Part shown: piece by piece, positions 22,435 to 63,353 of the stretch
How positions within the stretch are numbered: the stretch's first letter is position 1
Layout: the number at the start of each line of letters is the position of its first letter
Sequence record: LC680885.1
Direction: 5' to 3' (one strand)
Length of the DNA: 64,000 nucleotides
DNA from: Staphylococcus phage S6
Translations under genes and position numbers: made by a program
Notes under the pieces: generated by a model
Databases searched by the model: none
What the model was told of the DNA's origin: nothing
The model's input: the letters and a program-made list of their open reading frames with translations, nothing else

Positions 22435-22629
22435 ATGTTCTGGAAAGTATCAAAGAATCTCTTAAAGTTATCTAGAAGTATTTTAACATTCATTGAACTT
22501 AATTCAAATAAAAAGAAATATCCACCTTATTTAGCTTTTTTAGTATTCCAGAATAGTATAACAATAGATCAAGTTCCTAATGAATTTAAAGAAGAAGTTC
22601 AATATTTATTGGATGAAAGTTTTAAATAA
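22435..22629 (+). CDS. small hypothetical protein (64 aa)
   Basis: Short ORF preceded by a GAAAGGATGAATC purine-rich stretch. Support is weak. Confidence 0.3.
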   Translation: MFWKVSKNLLKLSRSILTFIELNSNKKKYPPYLAFLVFQNSITIDQVPNEFKEEVQYLLDESFK

Positions 22630-22693
22630 ATTATGATTGGTATCGTTGTATATACTTTTCTAAATTAAACATACTATTATAAAATTTAATTAT

Positions 22694-22703
22694 AATATAA
22701 AAT
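22694..22703 (+). promoter_or_regulatory. candidate late-promoter-like TATAAAAT box upstream of the sheath gene
   Basis: TAATATAAAAT about 55 nt upstream of the ATG. Compare the boxes before the MCP and tube genes. Confidence 0.25.
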
Positions 22704-22757
22704 CTATTGAAATTAATCACATAGATGTAAATATTCGAAAGGAAGGTTACAAAACAT

Positions 22758-44355: not shown

Positions 44356-44683
44356 ATCTCTCCTTATATAAAATAATTTGAAGCTAATATTCTTACTAAC
44401 TTCATTAAAATAATATATATTTATATTATTAATTGAAGTTTATAAATTTTTATTATTAGAGTTTTTCTATGATCCAGAGTATTAATATATTTTATTAATT
44501 AAAAATATATTTATTAATAATATTTATATTAATATTAATTATTAAATTTATAATTACTTACTAATATAAGTAATATATTAATACAAAATTTTAAAAATTT
44601 ATAAATAAAAATTTTATAAAATCTGAATAACCAATTTATATTAATTAAAAAATCAATGACGTTTAAAAATATAATAAATTTGA
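44356..44683. promoter_or_regulatory. about 330 bp extremely AT-rich divergent intergenic region (divergent promoters; candidate replication or regulatory region)
   Basis: It lies between the 5' ends of the minus-strand tail operon and the plus-strand helicase gene. Iterated ATTAAT/TTAATA repeats and an imperfect palindrome TTACTAATATAAGTAA. Confidence 0.4.
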
Positions 44684-45910
44684 TTGAGGTGTATTAAGAT
44701 AATGGGTTTAAATAAAAAACAAGAAGAAGGATTAAGATTAGCTAAAGAATGGTATAATAATGATAGTCATAGACCTTTTGTATTATCAGGTATTGCTGGA
44801 AGTGGGAAGTCATTTACAATGACTAAAATAATTGATTCTTTAGGCTTACATGAAGCTAATGTTTCTTTTATAGCATATACAGGAATGGCTGCAGGTGTAT
44901 TAGTCAAAAGAGGTTTGAATGCTACTACAATCCATAGAACTATTTATAATCATTTTATGGATGAAAAAACTGGTAAAGTGAATTTTAGATTAAAAGATGA
45001 ATTACCGAGAGATATTAAATTAATAATTATAGACGAAGTTTCAATGGTTCCTATGAAGATGATAGAAGAAATTCAAAGTTTTGGAATACCTATACTATGT
45101 TTAGGAGATCCAGCACAGCTTAAAAGTTTATCAGGAAGAAATGAATTACTAGATAAACCTGATATATTCTTAGATGAACCAGTAAGACAATCATTAGATA
45201 ATCCTATACTTGTTGCAGCTAATTTAGTTCGTAATGGTAAAGATTTAGAATATGGTTCATATGGAGATAATGTACATGTAATTACTTCAGATGAATTGAC
45301 TTTAGATATGTATCAGAATGCAGATCAAGTTCTAATGAGCTATAATAGAACAGTGGATCAATTTAATAGATTCTATAGAAGTCAAATATTAAATATTGAT
45401 GTTGAAAATAATCCATTTCCTAAAGAAGATGAAAAAATTATTTGTCTAAAGAATAATTGGTCTAAAGTAGTTAATGAAGGTAATATAACTCAGTACTTAA
45501 CTAATGGTTTGATTGGTAATATAACTAGATCTGGTAAAAAGAAACCTATGACTAAATCAACTCAGTTGGATTTTAAACCTAAAGGTTTTGAATTAGAAAG
45601 GTTTAGTAGAATATATTACGATGATTTAATTTTTGAAGGTACTATTGGAGATCAACAAGAACTATTTGATTTAAGATTCAAAGATAATGAAATTAATAAA
45701 ATATTTAAGAAACGATATGTAACTGAAATGTCTGATTTTGGTATGAAAGTAAATCCATTTAATTTTGCATACGGAATTACTATTCATAAATCTCAAGGTT
45801 CTGAATTTGATAATGTAATAGTATTTAGTGAAAATATGAGTAAAGATAGATTCAAGTCATTATATACAGCTATTACTCGTGCTAAAAAGAATTTGATTGT
45901 AGTTCAATAA
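44684..45910 (+). CDS. dda: Dda/RecD-like SF1 DNA helicase
   Basis: Walker A GIAGSGKS, Walker B IIIDEVSM, and C-terminal GITIHKSQGSEFDNVIVF. Confidence 0.85.
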   Translation: MRCIKIMGLNKKQEEGLRLAKEWYNNDSHRPFVLSGIAGSGKSFTMTKIIDSLGLHEANVSFIAYTGMAAGVLVKRGLNATTIHRTIYNHFMDEKTGKVNFRLKDELPRDIKLIIIDEVSMVPMKMIEEIQSFGIPILCLGDPAQLKSLSGRNELLDKPDIFLDEPVRQSLDNPILVAANLVRNGKDLEYGSYGDNVHVITSDELTLDMYQNADQVLMSYNRTVDQFNRFYRSQILNIDVENNPFPKEDEKIICLKNNWSKVVNEGNITQYLTNGLIGNITRSGKKKPMTKSTQLDFKPKGFELERFSRIYYDDLIFEGTIGDQQELFDLRFKDNEINKIFKKRYVTEMSDFGMKVNPFNFAYGITIHKSQGSEFDNVIVFSENMSKDRFKSLYTAITRAKKNLIVVQ

Positions 45911-45930
45911 TATGTATAAGGATGATATAA

Positions 45931-46182
45931 GTGGATAATAATAATGTAAGTAGTAAAATCAATAAAAATCAATTACAAACAGCAATGAATAATATGTCTA
46001 AAAATATAAATGGTATAAGTAGAAAGATAACAGGACAAGATAAAATTGATGAAATTAATAAACTTAAAAGAGAAAATGAAGAATTACATCGTTTTCTCTT
46101 TAAGATCTATCAAGATGATGAATTTGATAGGAAAGAATTGAAGAAAATTATATTTAAAGATGTAAATAAAAAATTTAAATAA
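45931..46182 (+). CDS. small coiled-coil protein (83 aa), C-terminus ...KDVNKKFK
   Basis: First member of a tandem small-ORF array. Its C-terminus is related to the K[ED]N[FL]K family. Confidence 0.4.
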   Translation: MDNNNVSSKINKNQLQTAMNNMSKNINGISRKITGQDKIDEINKLKRENEELHRFLFKIYQDDEFDRKELKKIIFKDVNKKFK

Positions 46183-46184
46183 GG

Positions 46185-46391
46185 GTGATTAATTTGAATT
46201 CAGATATCCGAATAGATAGAAGTGGCCTTTATATACAATCTAATGAGAAGCAGATGAAAGGACAAATTAAAATTATAGAAGAAAACAAAAAATTAAAAGA
46301 TTTTATTATTGATATTAAAAATAATGGTGGCTATGATGAAAAGGAATTAAATAAAATAGTAAATGAAATTGTTAAGGAGAATTTAAAATAA
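46185..46391 (+). CDS. small protein (68 aa) ending IVKENLK
   Basis: AAGGGTGATTAA RBS-like sequence. Conserved C-terminal tag. Confidence 0.45.
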   Translation: MINLNSDIRIDRSGLYIQSNEKQMKGQIKIIEENKKLKDFIIDIKNNGGYDEKELNKIVNEIVKENLK

Positions 46392-46846
46392 TGTCAAATG
46401 AAAAAGTTATTGCTAAAGAATTAACGTTAGACCAGAAAATTAAAATGTTAGAACCAAAGATAGATGAAGAGACTTATTTAAGACCATTAAGTCAAGTGGA
46501 TGAGTCTTTTTATAATGAAGTTATTAAAGATGAATTAATTGAGAAAATTAATAATGAAGACCATAAATTTGAAAATAATTTCGATTATCATATATTTAAA
46601 AATGGACCAATACAATTACTAGGTTTCATTTATAAATTTGAATTTAATGAAAATGCAGTAAATGTTAAAAAAGAAAAACCTAATGAAGGTAATATCTATT
46701 TTGGAAGCTTTATATTAAATAATAAAAATAAAAAAGATGATTCAATATATTTACTTAGAGTTGATAGCAGCTTAGTTGATTTTAGTCTATTAGAAAATAA
46801 AAAATATAAAGAATTTGGTAGAAACTTATTTAAATTAATTAAATAG
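46391..46846 (+). CDS. hypothetical protein (151 aa)
   Basis: ATG overlaps the previous stop (TAATG). AAGGAG RBS. Confidence 0.45.
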   Translation: MSNEKVIAKELTLDQKIKMLEPKIDEETYLRPLSQVDESFYNEVIKDELIEKINNEDHKFENNFDYHIFKNGPIQLLGFIYKFEFNENAVNVKKEKPNEGNIYFGSFILNNKNKKDDSIYLLRVDSSLVDFSLLENKKYKEFGRNLFKLIK

Positions 46847-46857
46847 GAGTGATATAA

Positions 46858-47136
46858 ATGGATAAAGAAATCGAAGATTTAGCAGGAAAAATAAATAATC
46901 TAGAAATTGACCTTAAAGGGATGAATTACAGATTATCTAATGATAAACAAGTTATTGATTTTGAAATAAATAAAATTAATGAATATATTAAATTTTTACA
47001 TGAAGAAAATCAAAGCATCAAAAAAGAAAATATGTTGTTAAAAGAAGCAATAGTGTCTATTTCTAAACATACAGAATTTAAGAATGATTATATAAATAAA
47101 CTGTCTAAAGAAATTGTTAAAGAAAATTTTAAATAA
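46858..47136 (+). CDS. small coiled-coil protein (92 aa) ending IVKENFK
   Basis: AGGAGTGATATAA RBS. Conserved C-terminal tag. Confidence 0.45.
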   Translation: MDKEIEDLAGKINNLEIDLKGMNYRLSNDKQVIDFEINKINEYIKFLHEENQSIKKENMLLKEAIVSISKHTEFKNDYINKLSKEIVKENFK

Positions 47137-47156
47137 TAAAGAGATGTGATTTTATT

Positions 47157-47432
47157 TTGAATAATGAAAAAAGTTTAATTAAGCGTATGGAAGATTTAGA
47201 AGAACGTACTAGAATGAATGAAATTAAATTAAATACTATGAAAGATAATTATCATTATATAAATGACATTATAGGCACATTAATTAATAGAATAGAAAAT
47301 TCTAATCAAACTAATGAAAAGAAATTAGATGAAATAAGATTAGAGTTAGTCCGTCTTTCTAACGAATTAAATTCACATTCTGAAGTAACTAAAAAGTATC
47401 TAAAGAATTTTATCAAAGATAATCTTAAATAA
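47157..47432 (+). CDS. small coiled-coil protein (91 aa) ending FIKDNLK
   Basis: Conserved C-terminal tag. TTG start per the ORF track. Confidence 0.4.
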   Translation: MNNEKSLIKRMEDLEERTRMNEIKLNTMKDNYHYINDIIGTLINRIENSNQTNEKKLDEIRLELVRLSNELNSHSEVTKKYLKNFIKDNLK

Positions 47433-47436
47433 AGGA

Positions 47437-47724
47437 ATGAAGTGTATGAAGACTATTAAAAGAATAATTGGTTCAGAAGAATTTATCAATACGGTAAAGA
47501 AAACTATAGCTAGAACTAAGAAAGCAGAAGAAAAATTTTATGATTTAAATAATAGAGTTGATAAAGCTTTATCTTTAGCTAGTAGAGTTGTTGAAGATAA
47601 TAAAGAAAAAGAAAGACAAATTAAAGAGCTAAAAGAAGCTTTATCTAAAGAAAAAATTAATAACAGAAGCATAAAATCCCGATATAATAGATTATTATAT
47701 AAAAATGGAAATGGAGGGAAATAA
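47437..47724 (+). CDS. small coiled-coil protein (95 aa)
   Basis: AAAGGAATGAAG RBS-like sequence. Part of the array. Confidence 0.4.
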   Translation: MKCMKTIKRIIGSEEFINTVKKTIARTKKAEEKFYDLNNRVDKALSLASRVVEDNKEKERQIKELKEALSKEKINNRSIKSRYNRLLYKNGNGGK

Positions 47725-47729
47725 TAATT

Positions 47730-47957
47730 ATGAACTCAAATATTAATTTTAATGATAATGGATCATCTATGGATGAACTATATTCAAGAATGCAACTTAG
47801 AGCCGCTAAACAAGTAGAAAAAGATATATTGGGAGATAATGAAAAAGATTCCCTAGAAAAAGAAGTAAAAGAACTTAGAGAACTTGTTCTTGAAGTAGCT
47901 AAAAAGTATGATGTTAAAGAAATAAAAGAATATCTAGTTAGAAAAAATATGAAATAG
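47730..47957 (+). CDS. small coiled-coil protein (75 aa) ending LVRKNMK
   Basis: Tandem array member. Its C-terminus is a degenerate form of the tag. Confidence 0.4.
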   Translation: MNSNINFNDNGSSMDELYSRMQLRAAKQVEKDILGDNEKDSLEKEVKELRELVLEVAKKYDVKEIKEYLVRKNMK

Positions 47958-47982
47958 TGTTTAAGAAAAGAGTTGAATAAAA

Positions 47983-48174
47983 TTGGTTGAAAATGATTTA
48001 GATATCTTTAAAGCAATTGAAAAAGCAACTAATAATATCTTAGATAAAAATGAAAAACTAAAAAGTGAGAATTTAGAACTTAAAGAATTGATATTAGATA
48101 TTTCTAAAGAATATAATATAAAAGATAAAAGAATAACTGAAATAAAAGTTGATCTAGCAAAAAATAAGAGGTAA
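47983..48174 (+). CDS. small coiled-coil protein (63 aa)
   Basis: Last array member. Its stop codon lies inside the terminator stem. Confidence 0.35.
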   Translation: MVENDLDIFKAIEKATNNILDKNEKLKSENLELKELILDISKEYNIKDKRITEIKVDLAKNKR

Positions 48175-48197
48175 TGACAAATTAATGTCATTACCTC
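48168..48197. terminator. bidirectional terminator hairpin
   Basis: GAGGTAATGACA...TGTCATTACCTC. It lies between the convergent small-ORF array and the minus-strand 742-aa ORF. Confidence 0.55.
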
Positions 48198-48210
48198 AAT
48201 TATACTGCTT

Positions 48211-50439
48211 TTAGTCATCATATTTATCTTTATATTCATAATAACTATCAAATTGAACTTCTAAACCTGAGAAAGCTGAAATGAATCCCATTCTACCTTC
48301 CATATTGATATTTTCAATATCTTTAAAATCAACATCTGGTTTACGATAATTGAAATTCTTATTTTTGTCTATAAATATTCTAATTCTATTTTCATTTTTA
48401 ATAATCTTGATATACTTGTTATTAATGTCTAATGGAACATGATTAGTTAAAAATAATTGTTTTTCTGATTCATCTTGGAATATTTCTTTAGGTTTTCCAA
48501 ATACTTTATCAATTTCATAGAAACCAGTTTTCATTATACGGTCAGGATCTTTCATTACATCTCCATCATTTAGATCAAAGTAAGGAACATCCCAATTTTC
48601 TTGTTGAGAAGCTATCCAAAGCATGTAACCTGAATTGAGTTGAGTGTTATAATCAAATACGATTCCTGCTCCACCAGTTTTATTTTTATTAATTACTTTA
48701 AATGTCATAATATAATTTTTAGGGAATTTAAAGTTTTGACTATACACATAATTTAATGCATCATCATCGAATTTAGTTGTTCCATCTATGAAGCTGATAT
48801 ATCCATAATTACCTAATGACTGTTTAGATAAAGTTTTATTATAAAATCCTGTATAAGTTTGAGTTTCTACAGGGAATGTACCATATGATCTTAATGCAAC
48901 TATCATAGGATTAAAGTATATTCCTGATCTACTCTCATCATAGAAATAATCAGAACCATCTGGATTTTTAAGTGAATAATTATACTCCAACTCAACATTA
49001 TACCAATCTTCTTTAGTTACGATAAATGTATTATCGAATTCTTCATGACTAATTCCAGCTATTTCAAATTCATCTAAACTAACTTGAATTATTTCATTTG
49101 GATCAACGTCATCAACAAAATTTGTTAATTTGACTTCTATTTCCATTCTCTTAATATTTTTCATATTGTACATCATATGTTTAAGATATGATTTTTGACC
49201 TTGAGTATTATAATTTTTATTATTTGAAGGGAATATATTTTCTACTTTTTTAACTTTACCTGTATTTGATGTTAATGTGATATCATAAACTAACTTAGCT
49301 GTAGGATGATTATTATCTTTAAAGTTAGTTGAATATCCCATATTAAAAGCAAAGAAATCATAATTTAATAAACGTTTAATATTCATTCTAGGATTTTCAT
49401 TTTCATCATCTAAAGTTATTTTAACAAATGATGCAGAATTTTCATCTTCTTTATCAGATTTACTTAAAATATCTCCTTTAACTTCATATAAACCGGTTTC
49501 TTGATTAAAACTTACTGAAGATAATCTTGTTGATTCAAGATTAGAATGACTTACATCTTCATCATTAGCTTTTCTTAAATCAAATATAGCTGTAGGTGCT
49601 TTAAATTGATAGTTCTCTGTAGCATTAATTATATTAAAACCTTTTCGATCTGTTATTTTTAATTTAGATGTACCATTTTGTAAAGGTGCAAATAAATATT
49701 TCTCTCCTGGTTTAAAATACATTTTACCTTGAAATTTACGTGAAAAACCTTTTTTGTAAAATAGATGTGGTAGAGTTTTTAAACCATCGTTATTAAGTGT
49801 AAATGGTTCTACTAAATCTTTATTATCTGTATCAGGTCTATAGAATTTATGCTCATGAACTTCATGTCTTTCTCTTAGATATCTATCAGAAGTGATATTT
49901 TCTAATTTATCTTCAAAATCAGTTTCAGGTACAAACGGTATAATTCTAGGATCGTTATAACCCGGAGTAACTCTACCGGATTTTTCTTCAGTACTTTTCA
50001 TCATGTGTTTAAAAATAGGCTTGGGATTATTTTCAGTGCCTAATATTTCATTTTCTTCATTAATAATCTTATTTAAATCATTAATGACAGTCTCTGGGAA
50101 AATTTTTACAGTATCTGTATTAAATTGATCTACTGTTTGCATATCATTAACAAAAAGTAAAAGATACCAAAGATCAGTAGTTCCATATAGTTCATTAGAT
50201 AGATATTCAGGCCGATAGTGATATGATTTTGATAAGTCATAATCTATTAAATCTCTTTTAAGTACATTTTCATATTTTTTTAGTAATGGTAAACTAAAGA
50301 CAGCTTGTTTTTCAAATAAATACCATTCTGATATATTATTAAGTAATATTTTATTCGTCTTGGAGTATTCTATTTCATCAGACATTTCAGGTACATCATT
50401 TCTACCCATATTGTTATTTCCTACGTCACGAATAAGCAA
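48211..50439 (-). CDS. hypothetical large protein (742 aa), candidate structural or receptor-binding protein
   Basis: Isolated minus-strand ORF inside a plus-strand block. Its beta-rich, N/G/Y-rich composition resembles fibre or baseplate proteins. No catalytic motif seen. Confidence 0.45.
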   Translation of the reverse strand: MLIRDVGNNNMGRNDVPEMSDEIEYSKTNKILLNNISEWYLFEKQAVFSLPLLKKYENVLKRDLIDYDLSKSYHYRPEYLSNELYGTTDLWYLLLFVNDMQTVDQFNTDTVKIFPETVINDLNKIINEENEILGTENNPKPIFKHMMKSTEEKSGRVTPGYNDPRIIPFVPETDFEDKLENITSDRYLRERHEVHEHKFYRPDTDNKDLVEPFTLNNDGLKTLPHLFYKKGFSRKFQGKMYFKPGEKYLFAPLQNGTSKLKITDRKGFNIINATENYQFKAPTAIFDLRKANDEDVSHSNLESTRLSSVSFNQETGLYEVKGDILSKSDKEDENSASFVKITLDDENENPRMNIKRLLNYDFFAFNMGYSTNFKDNNHPTAKLVYDITLTSNTGKVKKVENIFPSNNKNYNTQGQKSYLKHMMYNMKNIKRMEIEVKLTNFVDDVDPNEIIQVSLDEFEIAGISHEEFDNTFIVTKEDWYNVELEYNYSLKNPDGSDYFYDESRSGIYFNPMIVALRSYGTFPVETQTYTGFYNKTLSKQSLGNYGYISFIDGTTKFDDDALNYVYSQNFKFPKNYIMTFKVINKNKTGGAGIVFDYNTQLNSGYMLWIASQQENWDVPYFDLNDGDVMKDPDRIMKTGFYEIDKVFGKPKEIFQDESEKQLFLTNHVPLDINNKYIKIIKNENRIRIFIDKNKNFNYRKPDVDFKDIENINMEGRMGFISAFSGLEVQFDSYYEYKDKYDD

Positions 50440-54247: not shown

Positions 54248-56311
54248 ATGTTAAAAAAGACTACAGAAAATGAATTAGAAAAGTTATTCAATGTCACTAT
54301 TTATAATGAAGAATTTTCTAATTTAAAACCTATGTATAATAGAAAAGATACTGAAACTAGAACTAAATTAAATGACAATCAAAATTCTAGAGTGTATGAG
54401 AATTTAATAAATTTCATTAATTATTCTAAAGCAGGAATGACACACATGTTTTTAACTCGTTCTAATAAATATAGAGATAAATATATTGATTTTCTAAGAA
54501 ATAGACTTGGTAAGGAAGATTTATTAGATGAGGTTGAATTTGAATATACAGATAGATATTTCAGATCTTTCATATATAATATAGATATAATTAGAAGAAG
54601 TGAATATCAAACACATCAATCTATAGAAAATGACTCTAAATTAGAAGATTCATTCTTATTAAGAAATGGAAATACAAATATAGATAGCTTTAAAACGGAT
54701 AATGGTTTATCTATAGAATTTTTAGATAAAGATGTAAAGAAAGATTTTTTAGATAAGAACAAACAAATTAGTTTAGAATCTTTGCTAGCTATCGATACGA
54801 TGGTGTCTAATTCATTAAGAAAGAAATGGTTAAAATCAATTGAAAAAGAAGAATTACCTGATATGAATATTATATTTAAAGAAGTTCCAGAAGTAGTAAT
54901 TATACTAGCAAACAGTATATATGAAAGATCAAATTTCAAATTATCATATGTAGATAGAAGTGTTATTAATATACACGCAGACGTTTCAGATGTTTTTGAA
55001 TCAATACTAACTTTAACTTCTAATTTTAATTATAAATTAATATTAGATTTAATAGATGAAGATTACTTAAGTAAAAATTTAAATCATTTCAAAGCTTCTG
55101 AATTTTCTTTATCTGACAATAATGACATTGATAATATATTTAGTATAATCGGAATTATTAAAAAACAAACGGACGTTATTAATAAATTTATAGAAAAAAG
55201 CAAATCAGATAATCTAGAAGACAATATTAATTTAATAATTAAAGAAAATGAAATAGATGATGACTTTGGAGAAATATTAAAAGTTTATATTGATAGTGTA
55301 TTATCTAAATTTAGAGAATATATTGAAGATGATACCAATATATTAAAAGATTCATCTAAGGTTTTAATAGGTGAAAATCTATTTGATTTCTTTATGAAAT
55401 TAGATGATCTCGAAATTTTAATGATTAGAAATATATACAGAGTTTTAGATAGTAATGTATATAATCCTGTAATCAGAGATGTTAAAGAATCACAAGAAAA
55501 AGTTATGAATGGAATAGTAGATTATTTTAAAAATAATACTAAAAAATTATCTTTAGATTTATCTAATATCGATATAAGTAGATTGAAAGATAGTTCTTTC
55601 ACATTATTAAACGATTTCATAACAAATGGAGAAGTAAGTAATCTTCGTATGAAACCTAATGAAGCTAATATAGAGTATTTCTATAAATTAAGTGTGGATA
55701 AAGAATTAAACCGTGACATATTAAATAGTAATATACAATATATGAAACAGGAATTATTAAAAGGTTTTAATGATGATTCTAAAATGACTTCGAATGCTAT
55801 TATTGAATTTGATAATTTTAATATTAATTTTGCTGTAATAGAAAATAATTCATATAATAATGAAATAGAAATAATGATGCAAGGAGTTACTTTTAAGAAA
55901 AAATTAACTGATGAGGATATTGCTACTATCTTTTTATATTCACATAAAGAAGTTAGTATATATCAAGACAAAAAATTAGTTATCATGGATAGAAATTATT
56001 TCTCTAGAAGAGGTATAAATAAATTTATAAATAATATGAATAATGTCTTCACTGATTTAGATGGAGAAAGTTTATCTAAATATATGTCTTTAATTTATAA
56101 TTTATTATCTTTATCAGATAATTCTTTTGAGGAAGATAAAGCAATTTATAATACTCTATATTACAATAAATTTGAATATATTAATAAAGAAAATGAGTTA
56201 AAAGTTGATAGTTATATTAATATGATTAATAATAAAGATGTAACAGATGATTTTAAAAAGAAATTTAAAAAGGTAAGATCTAAGTATTTAGTTTCTAGAA
56301 TATTTATTTAA
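54248..56311 (+). CDS. hypothetical protein (687 aa)
   Basis: AAAGGAG RBS. No recognisable motif. Confidence 0.5.
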   Translation: MLKKTTENELEKLFNVTIYNEEFSNLKPMYNRKDTETRTKLNDNQNSRVYENLINFINYSKAGMTHMFLTRSNKYRDKYIDFLRNRLGKEDLLDEVEFEYTDRYFRSFIYNIDIIRRSEYQTHQSIENDSKLEDSFLLRNGNTNIDSFKTDNGLSIEFLDKDVKKDFLDKNKQISLESLLAIDTMVSNSLRKKWLKSIEKEELPDMNIIFKEVPEVVIILANSIYERSNFKLSYVDRSVINIHADVSDVFESILTLTSNFNYKLILDLIDEDYLSKNLNHFKASEFSLSDNNDIDNIFSIIGIIKKQTDVINKFIEKSKSDNLEDNINLIIKENEIDDDFGEILKVYIDSVLSKFREYIEDDTNILKDSSKVLIGENLFDFFMKLDDLEILMIRNIYRVLDSNVYNPVIRDVKESQEKVMNGIVDYFKNNTKKLSLDLSNIDISRLKDSSFTLLNDFITNGEVSNLRMKPNEANIEYFYKLSVDKELNRDILNSNIQYMKQELLKGFNDDSKMTSNAIIEFDNFNINFAVIENNSYNNEIEIMMQGVTFKKKLTDEDIATIFLYSHKEVSIYQDKKLVIMDRNYFSRRGINKFINNMNNVFTDLDGESLSKYMSLIYNLLSLSDNSFEEDKAIYNTLYYNKFEYINKENELKVDSYINMINNKDVTDDFKKKFKKVRSKYLVSRIFI

Positions 56312-56383: not shown

Positions 56384-57571
56384 ATGGATATGAGTAAAGC
56401 AATAAAAGATTTATTTATCAATTACAATATATCTTATATTGAAGTTAATGAAGATCATGAACTTAATGAAATTGATAAAGAAGAATTATTAAAAATATTA
56501 GATTTTGATATTAAATTTGAAAAGGAAGAAATTTTAATAAGTGATAATATTAAAATAAATAATTTTAACGGTAATAAGTTAATAAATTTTGTATTTAATT
56601 ATTACTATACAGATAATGAATCACTAAAAGTATTTTTAAAAGACGTTATCAAAGATATTATTATGTATGGATATAAAGAAGATAGAAAAATAAGTCTAAA
56701 TATAAATCAATTACCTTTAGTATTTTATATAAATAAATTTTGTAAAGATAATGACATTAAAAATATTAAATTCTTTTATACTTTTAAAAATTCTTATGGG
56801 AATTTTTCATTTGGTTTATTAAAAGAAGAACATCTAGATGAATTTATTGATGATATAGAAGAAATAAGCAATAATAAGTTCTTCAATTTAAATAGTGGAT
56901 TATTAGATAATGACTTAATAATTAATGGAAATGAAAAGAAATTTATGAAGCTAATATCAAGTTTAATAGATTTAGATATGTCACATAAGGGTAATATATT
57001 TAAATTAAAAATGATAAATTATTTTTATAAATTATTTAATAGTTATATTAATAGTAAAGAAGATTTAGAATATGCAGATGAATTAATGAAGTTTAAAATA
57101 GATAGTCTTAAATATGGTGAATTTAATAAATATTATCTATATGAAAGATTTATAATCGGTATAGATAATTTATATGAACAAGAATTCTTAGGATATAATA
57201 CAAGAATGAATTATAATTATTTTATTGATAAAATACAAAAAATTGAAGATGAAGATGAAGTTAAATATATTTCAAAAATTGTTTTCTTTACATTAATAGA
57301 TGATATTTATAATGAAGCATCATTCTTTTTATCTTTTAGAACAGTCAATAAATATACTGATATTGCAGTTAAAGAAATATTGAAATTGATTGAAGACAAT
57401 CTTACAGAAAATCAGAAGAAACAATTTGTCAGAGAATATATGAGTATGAAAGATAGTTCATTTTATGCTTCAAATGAAAAATATAATCAAACATCTACAC
57501 TTGTTAAAATGTCTAAAGGGAAATTGAAAAAATTAATTATGAATGAAACAGTTAAAAAGACATTTATTTAA
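56384..57571 (+). CDS. hypothetical protein (395 aa)
   Basis: AGGAGATGAAATGG RBS. Confidence 0.5.
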   Translation: MDMSKAIKDLFINYNISYIEVNEDHELNEIDKEELLKILDFDIKFEKEEILISDNIKINNFNGNKLINFVFNYYYTDNESLKVFLKDVIKDIIMYGYKEDRKISLNINQLPLVFYINKFCKDNDIKNIKFFYTFKNSYGNFSFGLLKEEHLDEFIDDIEEISNNKFFNLNSGLLDNDLIINGNEKKFMKLISSLIDLDMSHKGNIFKLKMINYFYKLFNSYINSKEDLEYADELMKFKIDSLKYGEFNKYYLYERFIIGIDNLYEQEFLGYNTRMNYNYFIDKIQKIEDEDEVKYISKIVFFTLIDDIYNEASFFLSFRTVNKYTDIAVKEILKLIEDNLTENQKKQFVREYMSMKDSSFYASNEKYNQTSTLVKMSKGKLKKLIMNETVKKTFI

Positions 57572-58332: not shown

Positions 58333-58992
58333 ATGAAAAAATTTAGAGATGAATTAATAAATCACTATACAAATTTATTGAGATTCAACGATGATTCTTT
58401 TTATTATAGATTAAAAATTAATTATTTGAATTTCGATTTCTCTAAAGATGTAAATTTAAGAAAAAATAATGTGTTTAAATTAAATTATAAAATCAGCTTT
58501 TTCCTATATTTTAAAATTTTAATAAAAGATTTTATTTCAAATAATTTAGATGAAAATGGTGTATCATTATTATTTTCAGATAGTGTTAATAATAATAATT
58601 TTATTTCTACATTATTTGTTAAGAATAATTCTGATATTGAATTGAAACTAGATTTGGGTGTGTATTATGAACTAGATGAAACTAAAATAGTTCTAATAGA
58701 TTTAAATGAAGAGTTTAATATAGAATATTCAGATGATAGTATTATAATTCATACAGATGAAGATAATTTTGAAAATGTAGTTTATTCTATTCTAAACAAA
58801 ATCAAATTCATCTTAGAAGGAAATATATATGCATTTAGCATATCTTTATTTGGCAATGGAAAAATAGGAGATAGTAATATATTTTATTTAGAAGAGATTG
58901 AAAATATATTTAACTCTAGAAAAAATAGTATAATTGAAGAACTTTCTGAAAGTGAAGTTAAAAAATATAAAATCAAAGAAGGGTTTAAATAG
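58333..58992 (+). CDS. hypothetical protein (219 aa), divergent member of the tandem paralog trio, ends KIKEGFK
   Basis: GAGAAGGGAAAT RBS. Its C-terminal tag is degenerate. Confidence 0.5.
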   Translation: MKKFRDELINHYTNLLRFNDDSFYYRLKINYLNFDFSKDVNLRKNNVFKLNYKISFFLYFKILIKDFISNNLDENGVSLLFSDSVNNNNFISTLFVKNNSDIELKLDLGVYYELDETKIVLIDLNEEFNIEYSDDSIIIHTDEDNFENVVYSILNKIKFILEGNIYAFSISLFGNGKIGDSNIFYLEEIENIFNSRKNSIIEELSESEVKKYKIKEGFK

Positions 58993-58994: not shown

Positions 58995-59606
58995 ATGGGT
59001 GATATTAAATTTAATGAAGAATATATGTCAGTTAAAATTTATAAGTTAATTAATTTGTTTGAGTTTCAACAAACAACTCGTAAAAGAGCATTTTCAAACC
59101 ATAATTCTGAAAGTGATGAAAATGAGCTTAATATGTATATAGGTAAAAATGACAATAAAAATATGATTGACATTTTTACTAGTTCTTTCTTTTTATACAA
59201 TCAATTTAAAGATGTTTGCAGTTTAGTATTTAACAATGGTAATACTATTATTGCAGAAATTGAGATATTAAATAAAAATAAATTGTCAATTGAAATTAAT
59301 TCAGAAATCTTAATTGATGATAGTGAAATTAAAAATTTCATTATCAAAAATGATTTTAGTGTAGGAGATGGATTCTTAGGCTTAATTATTGAAAATGATA
59401 AAGAAAAAATTCTTAAATTATTTTTAGAATCATTGTCTGATAGTTATTTTTGGATAAACAAGAAAAGAAGTTTAAATATATCTGATTCTAAAAAAATTAA
59501 ATTTAAAAAATATTTAGAAGATTTATATAAAATGAAAGATTTTTATAGTAAAGAAATCACTGAAAAAGAATATAAAGAAAATATAGTAAAAGATAATTTC
59601 AAATAA
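58995..59606 (+). CDS. hypothetical protein (203 aa), paralog, ends EKEYKENIVKDNFK
   Basis: Its C-terminal 30 aa closely match the next ORF. A TAATATAATCCCAATAC element follows it. Confidence 0.5.
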   Translation: MGDIKFNEEYMSVKIYKLINLFEFQQTTRKRAFSNHNSESDENELNMYIGKNDNKNMIDIFTSSFFLYNQFKDVCSLVFNNGNTIIAEIEILNKNKLSIEINSEILIDDSEIKNFIIKNDFSVGDGFLGLIIENDKEKILKLFLESLSDSYFWINKKRSLNISDSKKIKFKKYLEDLYKMKDFYSKEITEKEYKENIVKDNFK

Positions 59607-59697: not shown

Positions 59698-60339
59698 ATG
59701 GAAGAGATTTATCTTGATAAAAGATTTGATAGTGAATATTTTAAAATAAAAACTAGAGATATGATAAACTCTGTAAGATTTACTAAAGAACCAAACTTTG
59801 ATTTAATTATAAATAACCGTAAAGAAGAAAAAATTTTATATACTAAAAATGACAGTATTAGAAATTTATTTATTGAATCTTTTATCTTGTATTTAAATAA
59901 TATTACAGACGTTTATACATTTAGTATATCAATCAGTAATATTAAGTTAATTTTTAGTTTAAGATACAATCATACGAATAAAGATACCAAATTTTTAATT
60001 TATATAATAGAAAATGATAAATTTAATTATGAAAAAGATGTATCTGAATTAGAAAAAATATTAAATGACATATCTTCTTTAGTAAATAAAGAATACTATA
60101 TATCTAAAGGTAGTTTTATAATAGACTATTTAGATATAGAAAAAATTGATAAGATATTATATTACATTAATAAATTAGATGATCTTCGTATAATGTTAGA
60201 TGATTCAGAAAAAGAAGGAAAATCGTATTTAAGTTACAACTCTTTTCTTAAAGAACTTTATTTAAAAAGAAACCTATATTCTAAAAGTATTACTAAAAAG
60301 GAATATACTGATAATTTAGTTAAAGAAAATTTTAAATAA
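59698..60339 (+). CDS. hypothetical protein (213 aa), paralog, ends KKEYTDNLVKENFK
   Basis: Paralog of 58995-59606. The same downstream TAATATAATCCCAATAC element is here extended into a full hairpin. Confidence 0.5.
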   Translation: MEEIYLDKRFDSEYFKIKTRDMINSVRFTKEPNFDLIINNRKEEKILYTKNDSIRNLFIESFILYLNNITDVYTFSISISNIKLIFSLRYNHTNKDTKFLIYIIENDKFNYEKDVSELEKILNDISSLVNKEYYISKGSFIIDYLDIEKIDKILYYINKLDDLRIMLDDSEKEGKSYLSYNSFLKELYLKRNLYSKSITKKEYTDNLVKENFK

Positions 60340-60345
60340 TATAAT

Positions 60346-60400
60346 CCCAATACCTATTACATCAATAGGTATTGGGAAAAATTTAAATTATTTTTTATTT
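60346..60400. terminator. bidirectional terminator hairpin
   Basis: CCCAATACCTAT-tacatca-ATAGGTATTGGG with flanking A/T runs. It lies between convergent ORFs. Confidence 0.55.
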
Positions 60401-60691
60401 CATGCTGTCTAATTCAGCTAATTTTAATTTAGCTTTAGTTGCATATTTTTGACGAATTATGTCACGCCATTTTTTACGAGCACGAGCAGCTTTTTGATAT
60501 TTAAAATAGATTGGATCTTGAGCTTCTTTAGCTGCAACTAATGCTAATTGGTTTAATCTACGTTTACGTTTAGTACGTTCATCTAAACGCATGATATTTT
60601 GTTCACGTAAAAGAGCTTCATCAGTTGCTTGCATAATTTGCTCTTCTAGTGGAGTAATGTTATTTTTCATAATGGAAGATCTTCCTTTCAA
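60395..60691 (-). CDS. small highly basic protein (98 aa), possible nucleic-acid-binding protein
   Basis: K/R-rich (RKRRLNQ...KAARARKKWRDIIRQKYATKAK). It is a lone minus-strand gene with a GGAAGATCTTCC-type RBS. Confidence 0.45.
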   Translation of the reverse strand: MKGRSSIMKNNITPLEEQIMQATDEALLREQNIMRLDERTKRKRRLNQLALVAAKEAQDPIYFKYQKAARARKKWRDIIRQKYATKAKLKLAELDSMK

Positions 60692-60817
60692 TTATTTTTA
60701 TTATTCATTATAATGATTATAAGAAATATGTTTTATTTAAGAAATATGAAAAAATTATTGAACCATAATAACTTATCTTATATAAGTATGAATCTATAAG
60801 GAGATGAGAATTTATTT

Positions 60818-62752
60818 ATGTCTAATCAAGATAATAAATATGAACGTAAAAGAGCTATAACAGGATATTTAGAAAATTTAATCAAATTAATTAAAATAAG
60901 AAAACCTGATATTGATAATGAAAAGTTAATTAATACTTGTAGAGAGTATATTAAAAAACATGTAGATCCAGCTTTAATAGAAATATCTGGACAAAAAATG
61001 AATGTGGATACAACTTTAAGACAAATTATAGATAATAATTTAATTGTAACTGGTTCTGGTTCTATTTATCAGCCTCAATCACAAAGAAAAAATTTAAATG
61101 CAGACATGTTAAAAGACTTTATAGATTCTCGTAAAGTAGCTAAACATAATATGTTTATATATAAAGGTAAAGATGATGTTTTACATGATAAATATATGAA
61201 CGAACAAAAAACAATTAAGATCTTGGCTAACAGTTATTACGGTGCTATGATTCAAAAGAATAGTACATTCTATGATGCTAATTCAGGTCCAGCAACTACA
61301 TATAGTGGTGTTGATATTGTAACTACTTCAGCAATAGCTTTAGAAAGATTTATAGGTGGAAAAATATTCTTTATGAAAATTGATGAAATATATCATTATA
61401 TATTAAGAATAATCAATGAAGAATATAAAGATCATGATATTAAAATAAAAACAATTCCAACTGATATGGAAATTTTAGAAGGTTTAGTTTCTAATGTTGA
61501 AGAATCTTTTAGCGAAGAAGAATATCTTAAATTAGAAGAAGTATTTAGTAAATTAAGTCAAGAAGATAAAAATAAGGTATATTTCAAAAATAACTTATTT
61601 GGTTTAATTGATCATACTGATATATTTGAGAATAAAATTAGTAAAATGACTGGTAGAGAAGATTTCTTAGATCCGAACGAACCACCTGAAGATATGATTC
61701 CATTATTAGATGAATTATTTGAAATATTAAAAGATTGGGTTATATACAACTATCAAGATTATAATAGAATGTATAGAATGAATTACAAGAAACGTAGAAG
61801 TGTTCTCACAATTGACACAGATTCAAATTTCGTTCACTTAGATCCATTATACGAAAAAATGAAATCATTAAAACCTGAAGATTTTCCTTTAGCAGAAAAT
61901 GGTTTAGAAGATAAATTAGAAGAACGTGTAGGTAATATATCTATTATTAACTATCAAATAACTAAATTATTAGAATTATCTTACTATGGATTCTGTAAAG
62001 ATGTAGGATTAGAAGAAGAACATTTAGGTTTAATATCAATGAAAAATGAATTTTTACTTGATAAACAATTAACAACAGATAAAAAGAAAACTTATGCATC
62101 ATCAGTAATTCAACAAGAAGGTAATTTAATTCAACCTCCAGATTTAGATGTTAAAGGTATGGCTATTAGAAAAGTTAACACTAATAAACGTATTAGAGAA
62201 TTATTTACTGAAATATTACAAAAAGATATTTTAGAAAATAAAACTGGTGTAGATCGTATTAAGATAATACGTAAATTTAAAGATATTGAAGAAATGATTA
62301 AGAAATCATTAGATAATGGAGAAATTGAATTCTTAAAACCGTTTAAAGCTAATAATGCTGAAGTGTATAAAGATCCTTATTCTCAAATGGCTTATAGAGC
62401 TGCTTTAGCATGGAATATAATGTTCCCAGAAAAGGAAATAGCACTACCTGCTAAGATATTAGCAGTTAAATTAAATATTAGTACATTTGGAGATATTAAG
62501 AATAAGATAACTGATGAAAATACTTTAAATAGATTTAGAGAAGTATTTAAGAATGAAAGTTTAGTTAAAAATGGTTTAAATGTAATTGCAGTTGAAGGTA
62601 ATACAATTCCTGAAGAGTTTAGACCTTTTATTGACTATGATAGTATGATTGAAGATCATATTAAACCAGGTAAAGATATTATTGAATCTATAGGAGTTAG
62701 AGTATTGGAATCTTCAAATAGCTCATTTGTATCTAATATGATTAAATTCTAA
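60818..62752 (+). CDS. family B DNA polymerase, C-terminal (palm/fingers/thumb) fragment encoded as a separate gene
   Basis: Motif B KILANSYYGAM, motif C LTIDTDSNFVHL, and KKKTYA (KKRY-like). There is no exonuclease domain and no motif A. It has its own AAGGAGATGAG RBS and ATG. The upstream gene is on the opposite strand. Confidence 0.8.
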   Translation: MSNQDNKYERKRAITGYLENLIKLIKIRKPDIDNEKLINTCREYIKKHVDPALIEISGQKMNVDTTLRQIIDNNLIVTGSGSIYQPQSQRKNLNADMLKDFIDSRKVAKHNMFIYKGKDDVLHDKYMNEQKTIKILANSYYGAMIQKNSTFYDANSGPATTYSGVDIVTTSAIALERFIGGKIFFMKIDEIYHYILRIINEEYKDHDIKIKTIPTDMEILEGLVSNVEESFSEEEYLKLEEVFSKLSQEDKNKVYFKNNLFGLIDHTDIFENKISKMTGREDFLDPNEPPEDMIPLLDELFEILKDWVIYNYQDYNRMYRMNYKKRRSVLTIDTDSNFVHLDPLYEKMKSLKPEDFPLAENGLEDKLEERVGNISIINYQITKLLELSYYGFCKDVGLEEEHLGLISMKNEFLLDKQLTTDKKKTYASSVIQQEGNLIQPPDLDVKGMAIRKVNTNKRIRELFTEILQKDILENKTGVDRIKIIRKFKDIEEMIKKSLDNGEIEFLKPFKANNAEVYKDPYSQMAYRAALAWNIMFPEKEIALPAKILAVKLNISTFGDIKNKITDENTLNRFREVFKNESLVKNGLNVIAVEGNTIPEEFRPFIDYDSMIEDHIKPGKDIIESIGVRVLESSNSSFVSNMIKF

Positions 62753-62756: not shown

Positions 62757-63353
62757 TTGAATGAGGTATTTATTATGGAAAAATACTATAAATTTAATTT
62801 ATTTGAGTGCATACTAAAAAATATTGGTATGCACTCAGATAAATATGAAAATTTGATAAGTAATATAAATAAAAATTTTACATCTTTATATTTTTATGAC
62901 TATGAGATTAATAATAGTGATATAGATAAATTGATATATGATAACATTCAAAAACAATTAATTGATGATAGTTATTTTTTATTTGAAATCAATAATAAAG
63001 AAGAAAGACTATTAGTTGATTTTGAAAATAACCTTTTATATGATAAATATAATGAGAAAATAGGAATGGTTTCTTTAAATAGGATTACTTCTTCTAGAGT
63101 AAATTTATTTTCAGATTTTGAGAATAAATATAGAGATTTAATATTTATGGAAAAAGAAGATATAAAATATGAAAATTTAATTGATATGGGATTTAATATT
63201 GTTACTACTTTTGAAATTTCTACCGTATGTAAAAATAAAATAAATAATTTTAGTTACTTTGGTTTTGATATTAAAGATAATAAAAATAATCTATTAATTG
63301 AATGTGATGAAAAAGAATTCAAAATTAATAAAGTTAAGAATAATTTTATATAA
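62757..63353 (+). CDS. hypothetical protein (198 aa)
   Basis: ORF 4 nt after the polymerase stop. GAATGAGG RBS-like sequence. Confidence 0.45.
   Translation: MNEVFIMEKYYKFNLFECILKNIGMHSDKYENLISNINKNFTSLYFYDYEINNSDIDKLIYDNIQKQLIDDSYFLFEINNKEERLLVDFENNLLYDKYNEKIGMVSLNRITSSRVNLFSDFENKYRDLIFMEKEDIKYENLIDMGFNIVTTFEISTVCKNKINNFSYFGFDIKDNKNNLLIECDEKEFKINKVKNNFI

What the first reader, a model, noticed from the sequence alone, without database searches (positions are those of the whole stretch)
45931..48174. Array of small coiled-coil ORFs sharing a conserved C-terminal ...[IV]-[VI]-K-[ED]-N-[FL]-K tag
Three tandem ORFs downstream of the Dda-like helicase end in IVKENLK, IVKENFK and FIKDNLK respectively; the first ORF of the array ends in ...KDVNKKFK. 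All are short (63-95 aa), K/E-rich and predicted coiled coils, with few other shared features.

A conserved extreme C-terminus across otherwise divergent small proteins suggests a shared recognition signal. Candidates are a degron, a packaging or targeting peptide, or a docking peptide for a common partner.

This phage also encodes a gp21-type protease, which in T4 cleaves after L/I-x-E. The tag contains [IV]-x-K-E just before its last three residues, so protease processing of a targeting tag is one speculative reading.
Basis: seen in the sequence. Interest (0 to 1): 0.7.

Follow-up and report, generated by a model that had tools for sequence, protein, structure and literature searches.

The report
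Shared C-terminal tail on ~40 phage proteins
The "…IVKENFK" ending of these small ORFs is real, and the same 12–16-residue tail, with Phe always second from the end, closes about 40 fast-evolving proteins (14% of genes) of Staphylococcus jumbo phages, which points to an undescribed shared interaction module and not a protease-cut tag.

Summary
Confirmed and much larger than reported. The window is a Staphylococcus AR9-like jumbo phage, 98% identical to PALS_2.

- **The array.** o2, o4 and o5 end in IVKENLK, IVKENFK and FIKDNLK, and o7 ends in LVRKNMK. The ORFs are not "otherwise divergent". o1, o2, o4, o8 and, more weakly, o7 are tandem paralogs sharing a ~40-residue C-terminal helix–turn–helix. 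o5 shares only the tail. o3 and o6 are unrelated.
- **The tail genome-wide.** The motif [DT]-E-K-E-[YI]-K-x-x-[LK]-V-K-x-N-F-K-COOH ends about 40 of 287 PALS_2 proteins (64–687 aa). Shuffled C-termini give 0.4 on average. It ends at least 30 proteins in the divergent phage SA1 and none in Bacillus phage AR9. Phe/Leu/Met is always at position −2.
- **Evolution.** Carriers are clade-specific and fast-evolving: PALS_2–SA1 body identity is 44%, against 69% for the tail and 67% for other proteins.
- **Annotation.** Pfam, PHROGs, NCBIfam and PDB gave no match, and no paper read mentions the tail.
- **Structure.** AlphaFold places the tail as a confident terminal helix, not a floppy tag.
- **Protease reading.** Not supported: Glu is not conserved, the position is wrong, and most carriers lie in predicted early operons.
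- **Best reading (about 0.45).** A common protein-interaction module on a lineage-specific gene expansion. No partner has been identified.

The parts
44422..44429 (+). TATATTAT, the core of the predicted early (virion RNA polymerase) promoter. It lies 280 nt upstream of the helicase ATG, so its relevance to this operon is doubtful.
   Evidence: One search gives the position. One search gives the motif from Korn et al. One search shows it is absent upstream of the helicase in SA1, Machias and AH12.
44702..45910 (+). RecD/Dda-like helicase, the first gene of the co-directional operon (the mechanical ORF begins at 44684).
   Evidence: annotated as a RecD-like helicase in 9 phage records. The SA1 ortholog was classed as late by RNA-seq.
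45931..46182 (+). o1, 83 aa. A paralog of the small helical family with a degenerate tail, …IIFKDVNKKFK.
   Evidence: (g1-g2 probability 90%, E 1e-6).
46185..46391 (+). o2, 68 aa (probably 65 aa starting at TTG 46194). Small-family paralog ending …EIVKENLK. Absent from Machias, AH12 and PB50.
46391..46846 (+). o3, 151 aa. Unrelated to the family and without the tail. It is one of the most conserved genes of the array (mean column identity 0.91 across 7 phages).
   Evidence: Searches found no family match.
46858..47136 (+). o4, 92 aa. Small-family paralog ending …EIVKENFK. Modelled as helix 2-72, turn 73-76, helix 77-91. The N-terminal half is variable or replaced between phages; the C-terminal half is conserved.
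47157..47432 (+). o5, 91 aa. Ends …KNFIKDNLK. It shares only the tail with the other small ORFs.
   Evidence: (no profile link better than E 0.008).
47437..47724 (+). o6, 95 aa (92 aa if it starts at ATG 47446, as annotated in related phages). A helical protein with a basic C-terminus …YKNGNGGK. No tail and no detectable relation to the family.
47730..47957 (+). o7, 75 aa. Ends …YDVKEIKEYLVRKNMK, the best match in the array to the genome-wide tail consensus (PSSM 26.9 bits). Linked more weakly to the small family.
47983..48174 (+). o8, 63 aa. A small-family paralog that lacks the tail (ends …DLAKNKR). Absent from Machias, AH12, PB50 and LY01.
   Evidence: g4-g8 probability 84%, E 8e-6.
48168..48197 (.). 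A 12-bp hairpin (the scan called it on the - strand) between the convergent o8 and baseplate-wedge genes. It marks the end of the operon.
   Evidence: MarsHill annotates a terminator at the equivalent place.
54248..56311 (+). 687-aa clade-specific protein ending …SKYLVSRIFI, a weak tail (PSSM 16 bits).
56384..57571 (+). 395-aa protein ending …NETVKKTFI, a weak tail. The tail is 94% identical in SA1, while the body is 28% identical.
58333..58992 (+). 219-aa protein of the large tail-bearing class, ending …SESEVKKYKIKEGFK.
58995..59606 (+). 203-aa protein of the large class, ending …ITEKEYKENIVKDNFK. Its body is found only in PALS_2 and DC4; in other clade members only the tail matches.
59698..60339 (+). 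213-aa protein of the large class, ending …ITKKEYTDNLVKENFK.
62757..63353 (+). 198-aa protein of the large class, ending …DEKEFKINKVKNNFI.

Best explanation
**The locus.** A RecD-like helicase is followed by eight small co-directional ORFs, and the run ends at a hairpin. The phage is a Staphylococcus AR9-like, uracil-DNA-type jumbo phage.

**The small ORFs.** Four of them (o1, o2, o4, o8), and more weakly o7, are tandem duplicates of one small helical protein. Its conserved core is the C-terminal ~40 residues: helix (E-N-x-x-L-K-x-x-I-x-x-I), a short turn, then a terminal helix.

**The tag.** The "IVKENFK" ending is the end of a 12-16-residue motif, [DT]-E-K-E-[YI]-K-x-x-[LK]-V-K-x-[NG]-F-K-COOH. 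This motif is the hallmark of a much larger, clade-specific and fast-evolving set of about 40 proteins per genome. Most are 140-285-aa proteins in tandem clusters that appear to form one divergent structural superfamily. The small helical ORFs share only the last ~12 residues with them.

**Shown:**
- The motif forms an amphipathic terminal helix, followed by an N/G cap and an invariant Phe (or Leu/Met) at position -2.
- No copy carries a C-terminal extension.
- Selection acts on the protein sequence, not the DNA.
- The tail is conserved well beyond the bodies that carry it.

**Inferred.** The tail is a common protein-protein interaction surface. It could dock many variable "bodies" onto one conserved partner, from host or phage, or mediate assembly among the carriers. 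This would resemble the constant docking motifs found on variable adaptor or effector families. It is part of the fold, not a cleavable or floppy tag. The partner and the biological role (host takeover or anti-defence are likely) are unknown.
For: - **Enrichment.** 43 of 287 C-termini pass a threshold met by 0.1% of internal windows. Shuffle controls are strongly exceeded. Phe/Leu/Met is at -2 in 40 of 40 tails and Val/Ile at -6 in 39 of 40.
- **Protein-level selection.** Tail codons vary synonymously.
- **Tail versus body.** BLASTP with tails removed links almost none of the carriers. In 23 PALS_2-SA1 reciprocal-best pairs, the body is 44% identical and the tail 69%; the tail exceeds the body in 18 of 23 (Wilcoxon p = 0.003). 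Other proteins are 67% identical.
- **Body turnover.** The body of 58995-59606 exists only in PALS_2 and DC4; elsewhere only the tail matches.
- **Conserved across the clade, absent outside it.** SA1 has at least 30 carriers in the 149 kb examined and AR9 has none. Only 1 of 43 carriers has any AR9 hit, and that hit is spurious, against 87 of 244 other proteins.
- **Different architectures share only the tail.** hhalign of the small-family C-domain against the large-class C-termini aligns only the last 12 residues.
- **Paralogy inside the array.**
- **Structure.** In o4 the tail is helix 77-91 after a turn (pLDDT 93.5). In the large member P0002 it is helix 189-198 followed by a KNFI coil, within a C-terminal block of pLDDT 85-91.
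- **Large class as one superfamily.** Two paralog groups align over their full length. The N-terminal KYYK motif recurs. The best BFVD matches are unnamed viral proteins of paralog-like lengths at 14-20% identity, with E down to 6e-9.
Against: - No partner has been identified and there is no experimental evidence of binding.
- The confident AlphaFold placement, and the absence of a disordered linker before the tail, fit equally well with a purely structural terminal helix inherited by descent.
- The large carriers look like one superfamily, so shared ancestry alone explains part of the similarity.
- The small array ORFs match the consensus only moderately (PSSM 13-27 bits, against 26-37 bits for the core set). 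o1 and o8 have degenerate or missing tails yet are retained.
- Timing is heterogeneous or unknown. The array is not behind a canonical early-promoter motif, and the SA1 helicase is "late" by RNA-seq.
Confidence: 0.45

Rival explanations
1. The tail is a purely structural relic. It is simply the best-conserved secondary-structure element, a core-capping terminal helix, of one rapidly diverging paralog superfamily. It has no common partner. The small ORFs kept or acquired it by partial duplication of 3' gene ends.
For: - The tail has high pLDDT in monomer models and no linker precedes it.
- The large carriers share N-terminal KYYK-type strands and align or superpose with one another.
- Carriers lie in tandem clusters typical of duplication.
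Against: - The small helical ORFs and the 395-687-aa proteins have different architectures yet carry the same ending, and only the last 12 residues align.
- The end of the protein is fixed to within one residue in about 40 paralogs and their orthologs. A structural helix should tolerate short extensions.
- Tails are conserved well beyond bodies between orthologs.
Confidence: 0.33
2. The tail is a C-terminal degron or adaptor tail. It is recognised by a host or phage AAA+ protease/unfoldase, either to time the turnover of these proteins or to deliver bound host targets, in the manner of the C-terminal ClpX-binding peptide of SspB.
For: - The motif is strictly anchored to the C-terminus.
- Carriers are accessory, fast-evolving and mostly in predicted early operons.
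- The phage encodes a MoxR-like AAA ATPase next to the array.
- The analogy with SspB and ssrA rests on general knowledge, not on a test made here.
Against: - The tail is a structured helix, not an unstructured nonpolar tag, and ends in Lys.
- AR9 has the same AAA ATPase/vWA pair but no tails.
- No stability or binding data exist.
Confidence: 0.1
3. One reading: a capsid- or virion-targeting peptide processed by the gp21-type prohead protease at [IV]-x-K-E.
For: - The phage has a gp21-type protease. It is annotated in DC4 and AR9, and the window ORF 6277-6912(-) gives a weak, sub-threshold Peptidase_S77 hit of 20.5 bits against a cut-off of 27.
- The array sits between tail genes, and its first gene is "late" in SA1 RNA-seq.
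- Encapsulin cargo uses C-terminal targeting peptides (general knowledge).
Against: - Glu at -4 occurs in only 14 of 40 tails.
- Cleavage there would remove only three residues.
- The T4 capsid-targeting sequence is N-terminal.
- 29 of 40 carriers lie in predicted early operons.
- No carrier is among the 15 DC4 virion proteins, though that survey is shallow.
- AR9, with the same protease and virion architecture, lacks the tail.
Confidence: 0.05
4. The motif is a compositional or nucleotide-level artefact: K/E/N-rich tails arising by chance in a 25% G+C genome, or a conserved DNA/RNA signal (Shine-Dalgarno sequence or terminator) overlapping gene ends.
For: - The genome is AT-rich.
- In one case the K-E codons (aag gag) of the o2 tail form the Shine-Dalgarno sequence of o3.
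Against: - Shuffle controls are exceeded by 100-fold or more.
- AR9, at 28% G+C, has no such tails.
- Synonymous codon variation is seen throughout the tails, and downstream spacers differ.
Confidence: 0.02

Closest known systems
T4-type internal proteins (IPI-III, Alt and the hypervariable IP loci) sharing a capsid-targeting sequence
   Same: A set of otherwise unrelated, fast-evolving, tandemly arranged phage proteins that share only a short terminal peptide. Body turnover between close relatives also occurs (comparison from general knowledge; turnover here shown).
   Different: The T4 capsid-targeting sequence is N-terminal, is cleaved after L/I-x-E by gp21, and its carriers are late virion proteins. 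Here the motif is C-terminal and helical with no conserved Glu. Most carriers are in predicted early operons, and none was seen in the shallow virion proteome.
Constant C-terminal docking motifs on variable adaptor families (the SspB C-terminal ClpX-binding peptide; the poxvirus ankyrin-repeat proteins with the C-terminal PRANC/F-box-like helix)
   Same: A variable target-binding body combined with a short conserved C-terminal element that engages one conserved machine. The poxvirus case is also a lineage-specific viral expansion (general knowledge).
   Different: There is no sequence similarity and no identified receptor. Binding has not been tested.
Lineage-specific expansions in jumbo phages (for example about 35 copies of a zinc ribbon in Bacillus phage G; Iyer et al. 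2021, PMC7824862)
   Same: Dozens of paralogs of a small module within one jumbo-phage genome.
   Different: That expansion is a recognisable zinc-ribbon domain. Here the conserved element is a 12-16-residue C-terminal helix with no family assignment.
YabA and generic leucine-zipper/coiled-coil proteins
   Same: Small helical proteins. o1, o4 and o8 give weak YabA hits.
   Different: Scores are 14-18 bits, against cut-offs of 30 (Pfam) and 142 (NCBIfam). There is no C-terminal zinc-binding domain. The resemblance is compositional.

Membership tests
T4 capsid-targeting sequence / gp21-processed core proteins | The targeting peptide lies at the N-terminus of the precursor. | tested here: not met
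   The motif is at the extreme C-terminus in all ~40 carriers.
T4 capsid-targeting sequence / gp21-processed core proteins | A conserved cleavage site (L/I)-x-E at the junction. | tested here: not met
   Position -4 is E in 14 of 40, N in 10, K in 10, D in 4 and R in 2. The conserved E at -12 is preceded by K at -13 and E at -14, not by L/I at P3.
T4 capsid-targeting sequence / gp21-processed core proteins | Carriers are present in virions or proheads, in processed form. | tested here: inconclusive
   The DC4 virion LC-MS lists 15 proteins and none is a carrier, but coverage is shallow. No prohead data exist.
Canonical coiled coil | A long helix with heptad a/d hydrophobic periodicity. | tested here: inconclusive
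   AlphaFold gives o4 a helix spanning residues 2-72. A crude heptad contrast against shuffles reached the observed value in 1.5-44% of shuffles (o6 0.015, o5 0.08, o8 0.095, the rest 0.15-0.44), and o2 had no scorable window. Oligomeric state was not modelled.
YabA (PF06156 / NF009642) | Score above the curated cut-off. | tested here: not met
   14-18 bits against cut-offs of 30 and 142.
Any Pfam, PHROGs or NCBIfam family, or any PDB sequence | A significant profile match. | tested here: not met
Encapsulin-type C-terminal cargo-loading peptide | A C-terminal peptide on a flexible linker, with a Gly/Ser-Leu-type consensus, next to a shell gene. | tested here: not met
   The position is C-terminal, but the motif is a structured K/E-rich helix with no linker. 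Carriers are scattered in non-structural clusters.
ssrA-like C-terminal degron | An unstructured tail ending in nonpolar residues, recognised by ClpX, ClpA or FtsH. | not testable with these tools
   The sequence ends …N-F-K and is helical in the models, so the resemblance is weak. Turnover was not measurable here.
Staphylococcus jumbo-phage "C-terminal …VKxNFK" class (defined here) | PSSM over the last 16 residues above threshold, F/L/M at -2, V/I at -6. | tested here: met
   o2, o4, o5 and o7 pass, with 15.7, 16.4, 13.3 and 26.9 bits. o1, o3, o6 and o8 do not.

The most novel reading that the evidence does not exclude
Staphylococcus AR9-like jumbo phages use a clade-specific C-terminal "address" helix (…E-K-E-[YI]-K-x-x-L-V-K-x-N-F-K-COOH). 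Through it, about 40 diverse and rapidly turning-over proteins would be recruited to a single receptor: a host hub protein, a phage-built compartment or assembly, or the particle. This would be a phage-encoded targeting code comparable in logic to the T4 capsid-targeting sequence or to peroxisomal PTS1, but at the C-terminus and covering 14% of the proteome.
Probability: 0.25. Interest if true: 0.85.

Novelty: new variant of a known kind. Interest (0 to 1): 0.62.

Why it matters
About one gene in seven of these therapeutic-candidate S. aureus jumbo phages is annotated "hypothetical" and carries this undescribed motif.

- **One experimental handle.** If the tail is a common docking element, a single pull-down or a tail-swap experiment could assign a shared pathway to about 40 orphan proteins at once. 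It could also identify the host or phage hub they converge on.
- **A likely arms-race gene set.** Bodies evolve fast and turn over while the tail stays constant. This marks the set as probable host-takeover or anti-defence effectors.
- **Annotation.** The motif gives a simple signature for annotating this class in new Staphylococcus jumbo-phage genomes.

Tried and rejected
- **Family libraries.** Pfam, PHROGs and NCBIfam scans of the array ORFs and of 28 large carriers found nothing above cut-off.
- **Word-indexed homology searches** with the large-class and small-class alignments returned only Staphylococcus jumbo-phage proteins.
- **Exhaustive HMM search** of 1.84 billion representatives with a 36-column tail profile returned only the seed proteins. 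The profile is too short to have power outside the clade.
- **IMG/VR scan** for a strict tail-encoding DNA pattern found 0 matches.
- **"Early operon" idea for the array.** The TATATTAT motif is 280 nt upstream of the helicase and is not conserved in SA1, Machias or AH12, and SA1 RNA-seq calls the helicase late. I dropped that claim for the array itself.
- **AR9 genes downstream of its RecD helicase** (g018, g019) are unrelated.
- **The single AR9 tblastn hit of o4** is a gapped, marginal match and is spurious.
- **Isoelectric point** of carriers is not distinctive.
- **Nucleotide-level explanations** (Shine-Dalgarno sequence, terminator or recombination box) are rejected because of synonymous codon variation.
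Full report
**Identity of the window.** The region 44600-48300 is 98.4% identical to Staphylococcus phage PALS_2. It is 82-98% identical to eight other Staphylococcus jumbo phages: DC4, Madawaska, MarsHill, LY01, SA1, Machias, AH12 and PB50. These phages are relatives of Bacillus phages AR9 and PBS1, with two multisubunit RNA polymerases and presumed uracil-DNA. In all nine records the ORFs of the finding are annotated "hypothetical protein".

**Anatomy of the locus.**
- A RecD/Dda-like helicase (44702-45910, +) is followed by eight tightly spaced co-directional ORFs:
  - o1 45931-46182
  - o2 46185-46391
  - o3 46391-46846
  - o4 46858-47136
  - o5 47157-47432
  - o6 47437-47724
  - o7 47730-47957
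  - o8 47983-48174
- Gaps between the ORFs range from -1 to 25 nt.
- A 12-bp hairpin at 48168-48197 separates o8 from the convergent baseplate-wedge gene.
- Gene number varies between relatives. Machias, AH12 and PB50 lack o2 and o8. LY01 lacks o8.

**Check of the observation.**
o7 (…YLVRKNMK) also belongs.
- o3, o6 and o8 do not carry the tag.
With the last 40 residues of each protein shuffled 2000 times:

| Measure | Observed | Shuffled mean |
|---|---|---|
| Relaxed motif | 13 | 0.025 |
| Phe at -2 | 59 | 15.3 |

- The codons encoding the tails vary synonymously. The conservation therefore acts on the protein, not on a DNA or RNA signal.

**The array ORFs are paralogs, not unrelated proteins with a tag.** Profiles were built from the orthologs in seven phages and compared with hhalign.

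| Pair | Aligned columns | Probability | E-value |
|---|---|---|---|
| o1-o2 | 34 | 90% | 1e-6 |
| o2-o4 | 40 | 96% | 6e-9 |
| o4-o8 | 42 | 84% | 8e-6 |
| o7-o8 | 35 | 42% | 3e-4 |
| o2-o8 | 30 | 43% | 2.5e-4 |

- o5 shows no link beyond the tail. o3 and o6 show none at all.
- A 30-sequence alignment shows the common core [IL]-K-x-E-N-x-x-L-K-x-x-I-x-x-I, a 6-10-residue turn, then x-x-I-x-K-I-x-x-x-I-V-K-x-N-F-K.
- Among orthologs of o1, o2 and o4, the N-terminal halves are variable or even replaced (mean column identity 0.49-0.65). The C-terminal halves are conserved (0.80-0.87).
- AlphaFold2 models o4 as helix 2-72, turn 73-76 and helix 77-91, at mean pLDDT 93.5. In this family the "tag" is the second helix of a hairpin.

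**The tail is a genome-wide feature.**
- Scanning all PALS_2 C-termini revealed the same ending on many larger proteins in tandem clusters, for example …LEDEKEIKKYIVRENFK, …ITDEKVIKEYLVKNNFK and …ITEKEYKENIVKDNFK.
- An iterated PSSM over the last 16 residues converges on 43 of 287 proteins. Its threshold is passed by only 69 of 69,924 internal windows. About 38-40 members survive leave-one-out.
- The logo is [DT]-E-K-E-[YI]-K-[KN]-[Y]-[LK]-V-K-x-[N/T/G]-F-K. It has F/L/M at -2 in 40 of 40, V/I at -6 in 39 of 40, K at -13, -10 and -5, and E at -12.
- Carriers range from 64 to 687 aa, and all are on the + strand.
- In the window, besides the array, the carriers are 54248-56311, 56384-57571, 58333-58992, 58995-59606, 59698-60339 and 62757-63353. 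A doubtful one lies at 22435-22629.

**Carriers are clade-specific, fast-evolving and turn over.**
- With tails removed, BLASTP links almost none of them to one another.
- The body of 58995-59606 is found only in PALS_2 and DC4. In Madawaska and MarsHill only the tail matches, in a different protein.
- The 687-aa carrier is 33-36% identical between subclades whose array DNA is 82-84% identical.
- In SA1, the most divergent member available, the PALS_2-trained PSSM finds 30 carriers in the 149 kb examined.
- For 23 PALS_2-SA1 reciprocal-best pairs, body identity is 44% (median) and tail identity 69%. The tail exceeds the body in 18 of 23 (Wilcoxon p = 0.003). Non-carrier orthologs are 67% identical.
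- In AR9 (245 kb, 305 ORFs) no C-terminus passes the threshold and Phe is not enriched at -2.
- Only 1 of 43 carriers has any AR9 tblastn hit, and that hit is marginal, gapped and spurious. By contrast 87 of 244 other proteins have a hit.
- Searches outside the clade found nothing: the phages collection, 5.8 billion clustered proteins, 1.84 billion representatives with a tail profile, and IMG/VR with a strict DNA pattern. The last two have little power for so short a motif.

**What the carriers look like.**
- AlphaFold2 of the 202-aa member PALS2_206 (13-sequence alignment, pLDDT 74.9, pTM 0.73) gives an N-terminal β-hairpin, helices, an antiparallel sheet and a C-terminal block of pLDDT 85-91. 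In that block the tail is helix 189-198, followed by a non-helical K-N-F-I.
- Foldseek against BFVD finds only unnamed viral proteins of paralog-like lengths (206, 200, 215, 178, 265, 219 and 264 aa) at 14-20% identity.
- Two paralog groups align over their full length, and an N-terminal KYYK/KYFK strand recurs. Together these suggest, but do not prove, that the 140-285-aa carriers form one divergent superfamily.
- The small helical family shares only the last 12 residues with them (hhalign P = 7e-4).

**Timing and location.**
- Korn et al. identified TATATTAT as the core of the early promoter used by the virion RNA polymerase. In PALS_2, 63 of 160 occurrences fall in the 7% of the genome that is intergenic.
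- 29 of 40 carriers lie in + strand runs headed by this motif 15-150 nt upstream, against 130 of 247 other genes (Fisher p = 0.025).
- The array is an exception. The nearest motif is 280 nt upstream of the helicase and is absent in SA1, Machias and AH12.
- The only experimental datum, the SA1 RNA-seq, places the helicase (ORF159) in the late cluster. No per-gene table for ORF160-167 was available.
- AR9 annotates an early promoter upstream of the run of genes that contains its RecD helicase. The timing of the array is therefore unresolved.
- The DC4 virion LC-MS lists 15 proteins, none of them a carrier, but it is shallow.

**Interpretation.**
- The protease-processed targeting tag is not supported, for these reasons:
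  - Glu at -4 occurs in only 14 of 40 tails.
  - Cleavage there would remove three residues.
  - The T4 capsid-targeting sequence is N-terminal.
  - Most carriers are in predicted early operons.
  - AR9 has the same protease and no tails.
- Chance and DNA-level explanations are excluded.
- Two readings remain.
  - **Interaction module (favoured, about 0.45).** The tail is a constant interaction module on a lineage-specific expansion of variable proteins. The grounds are its conservation beyond the bodies, its presence on different architectures and the invariant distance of Phe from the free C-terminus.
  - **Structural relic (about 0.33).** The tail is merely the best-conserved structural helix of a paralog superfamily.
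- The confident, linker-less placement in the models fits either reading. No partner is known. A degron or adaptor role (about 0.1) is a special case that cannot be tested here.

**Novelty.** None of the papers on MarsHill/Madawaska/Machias, DC4, PALS2 or SA1, nor the jumbo-phage survey of Iyer et al., mentions the motif or the family. The nearest analogues in logic are the T4 internal proteins with their capsid-targeting sequence, constant docking tails on variable adaptor families, and lineage-specific expansions such as the zinc ribbons of phage G. The feature is not a member of any of them.

Noticed in passing
window 46391-46846 (+): o3, a 151-aa ORF embedded in the array, is among its most conserved genes (mean column identity 0.91 across seven phages). 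It has no match in any family library. Its ATG overlaps the o2 stop codon, and its Shine-Dalgarno sequence (aaggag) is formed by the K-E codons of the o2 tail.
   Followed up: partly
window 46858-47136 (+) and orthologs in L005 and L006: o4 has two alternative N-terminal modules among close relatives: a 92-aa form starting MDKEIEDLAGKINNLEIDLK… and an 82-aa form starting MDEEIKEQLKTIEFKSIAN…. Both are joined to the same conserved C-terminal hairpin, which suggests recombinational module exchange.
   Followed up: partly
window 54248-56311 (+): This 687-aa protein is annotated in PALS_2 as "DNA-directed RNA polymerase, omega subunit family protein". tblastn finds it only in the Staphylococcus jumbo-phage clade, at 33-36% identity between subclades, and it ends in a weak version of the tail. 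The omega annotation looks unfounded.
   Followed up: partly
window 60395-60691 (-): A small basic protein (98-aa mechanical ORF; 91 aa as annotated) on the opposite strand, inside a carrier cluster. By gene order and size it corresponds to UFVDC4_00019 (91 aa, pI 10.2), one of the 15 proteins detected in DC4 virions. Its SA1 counterpart is annotated as similar to PBS1 gene 41.
   Followed up: no
window 6277-6912 (-): The gp21-type prohead protease ORF is only 211 aa here, against 280 aa annotated in PALS_2 and DC4. It matches only the C-terminal half of Peptidase_S77 (20.5 bits, below the cut-off of 27). The AR9 homolog is a joined two-piece CDS, so an intron or frameshift may interrupt the gene here.
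   Followed up: no
PALS_2 75082-77924 (L008 26082-28924); SA1 60011-62574: A run of six ~150-aa tandem paralogs (PALS2_076-081) all carry the tail. It is the only carrier cluster whose bodies are still linked by BLASTP, so it looks like a recent duplication burst.
   Followed up: partly
whole PALS_2 genome (L007-L012): TATATTAT is strongly concentrated in intergenic DNA: 63 of 160 occurrences fall in 7% of the sequence. It typically lies 45-95 nt upstream of the first gene of + strand runs, which gives a usable operon map for this phage.
   Followed up: partly
window 50.6-54.2 kb (+); AR9 21938-24586 (L013): The MoxR-like AAA ATPase and the following ~645-aa protein (a vWA/zincin-like fusion in AR9) are conserved between the Staphylococcus phages and AR9, and in AR9 they sit behind an annotated early promoter. 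The ATPase was also detected in DC4 virions.
   Followed up: no
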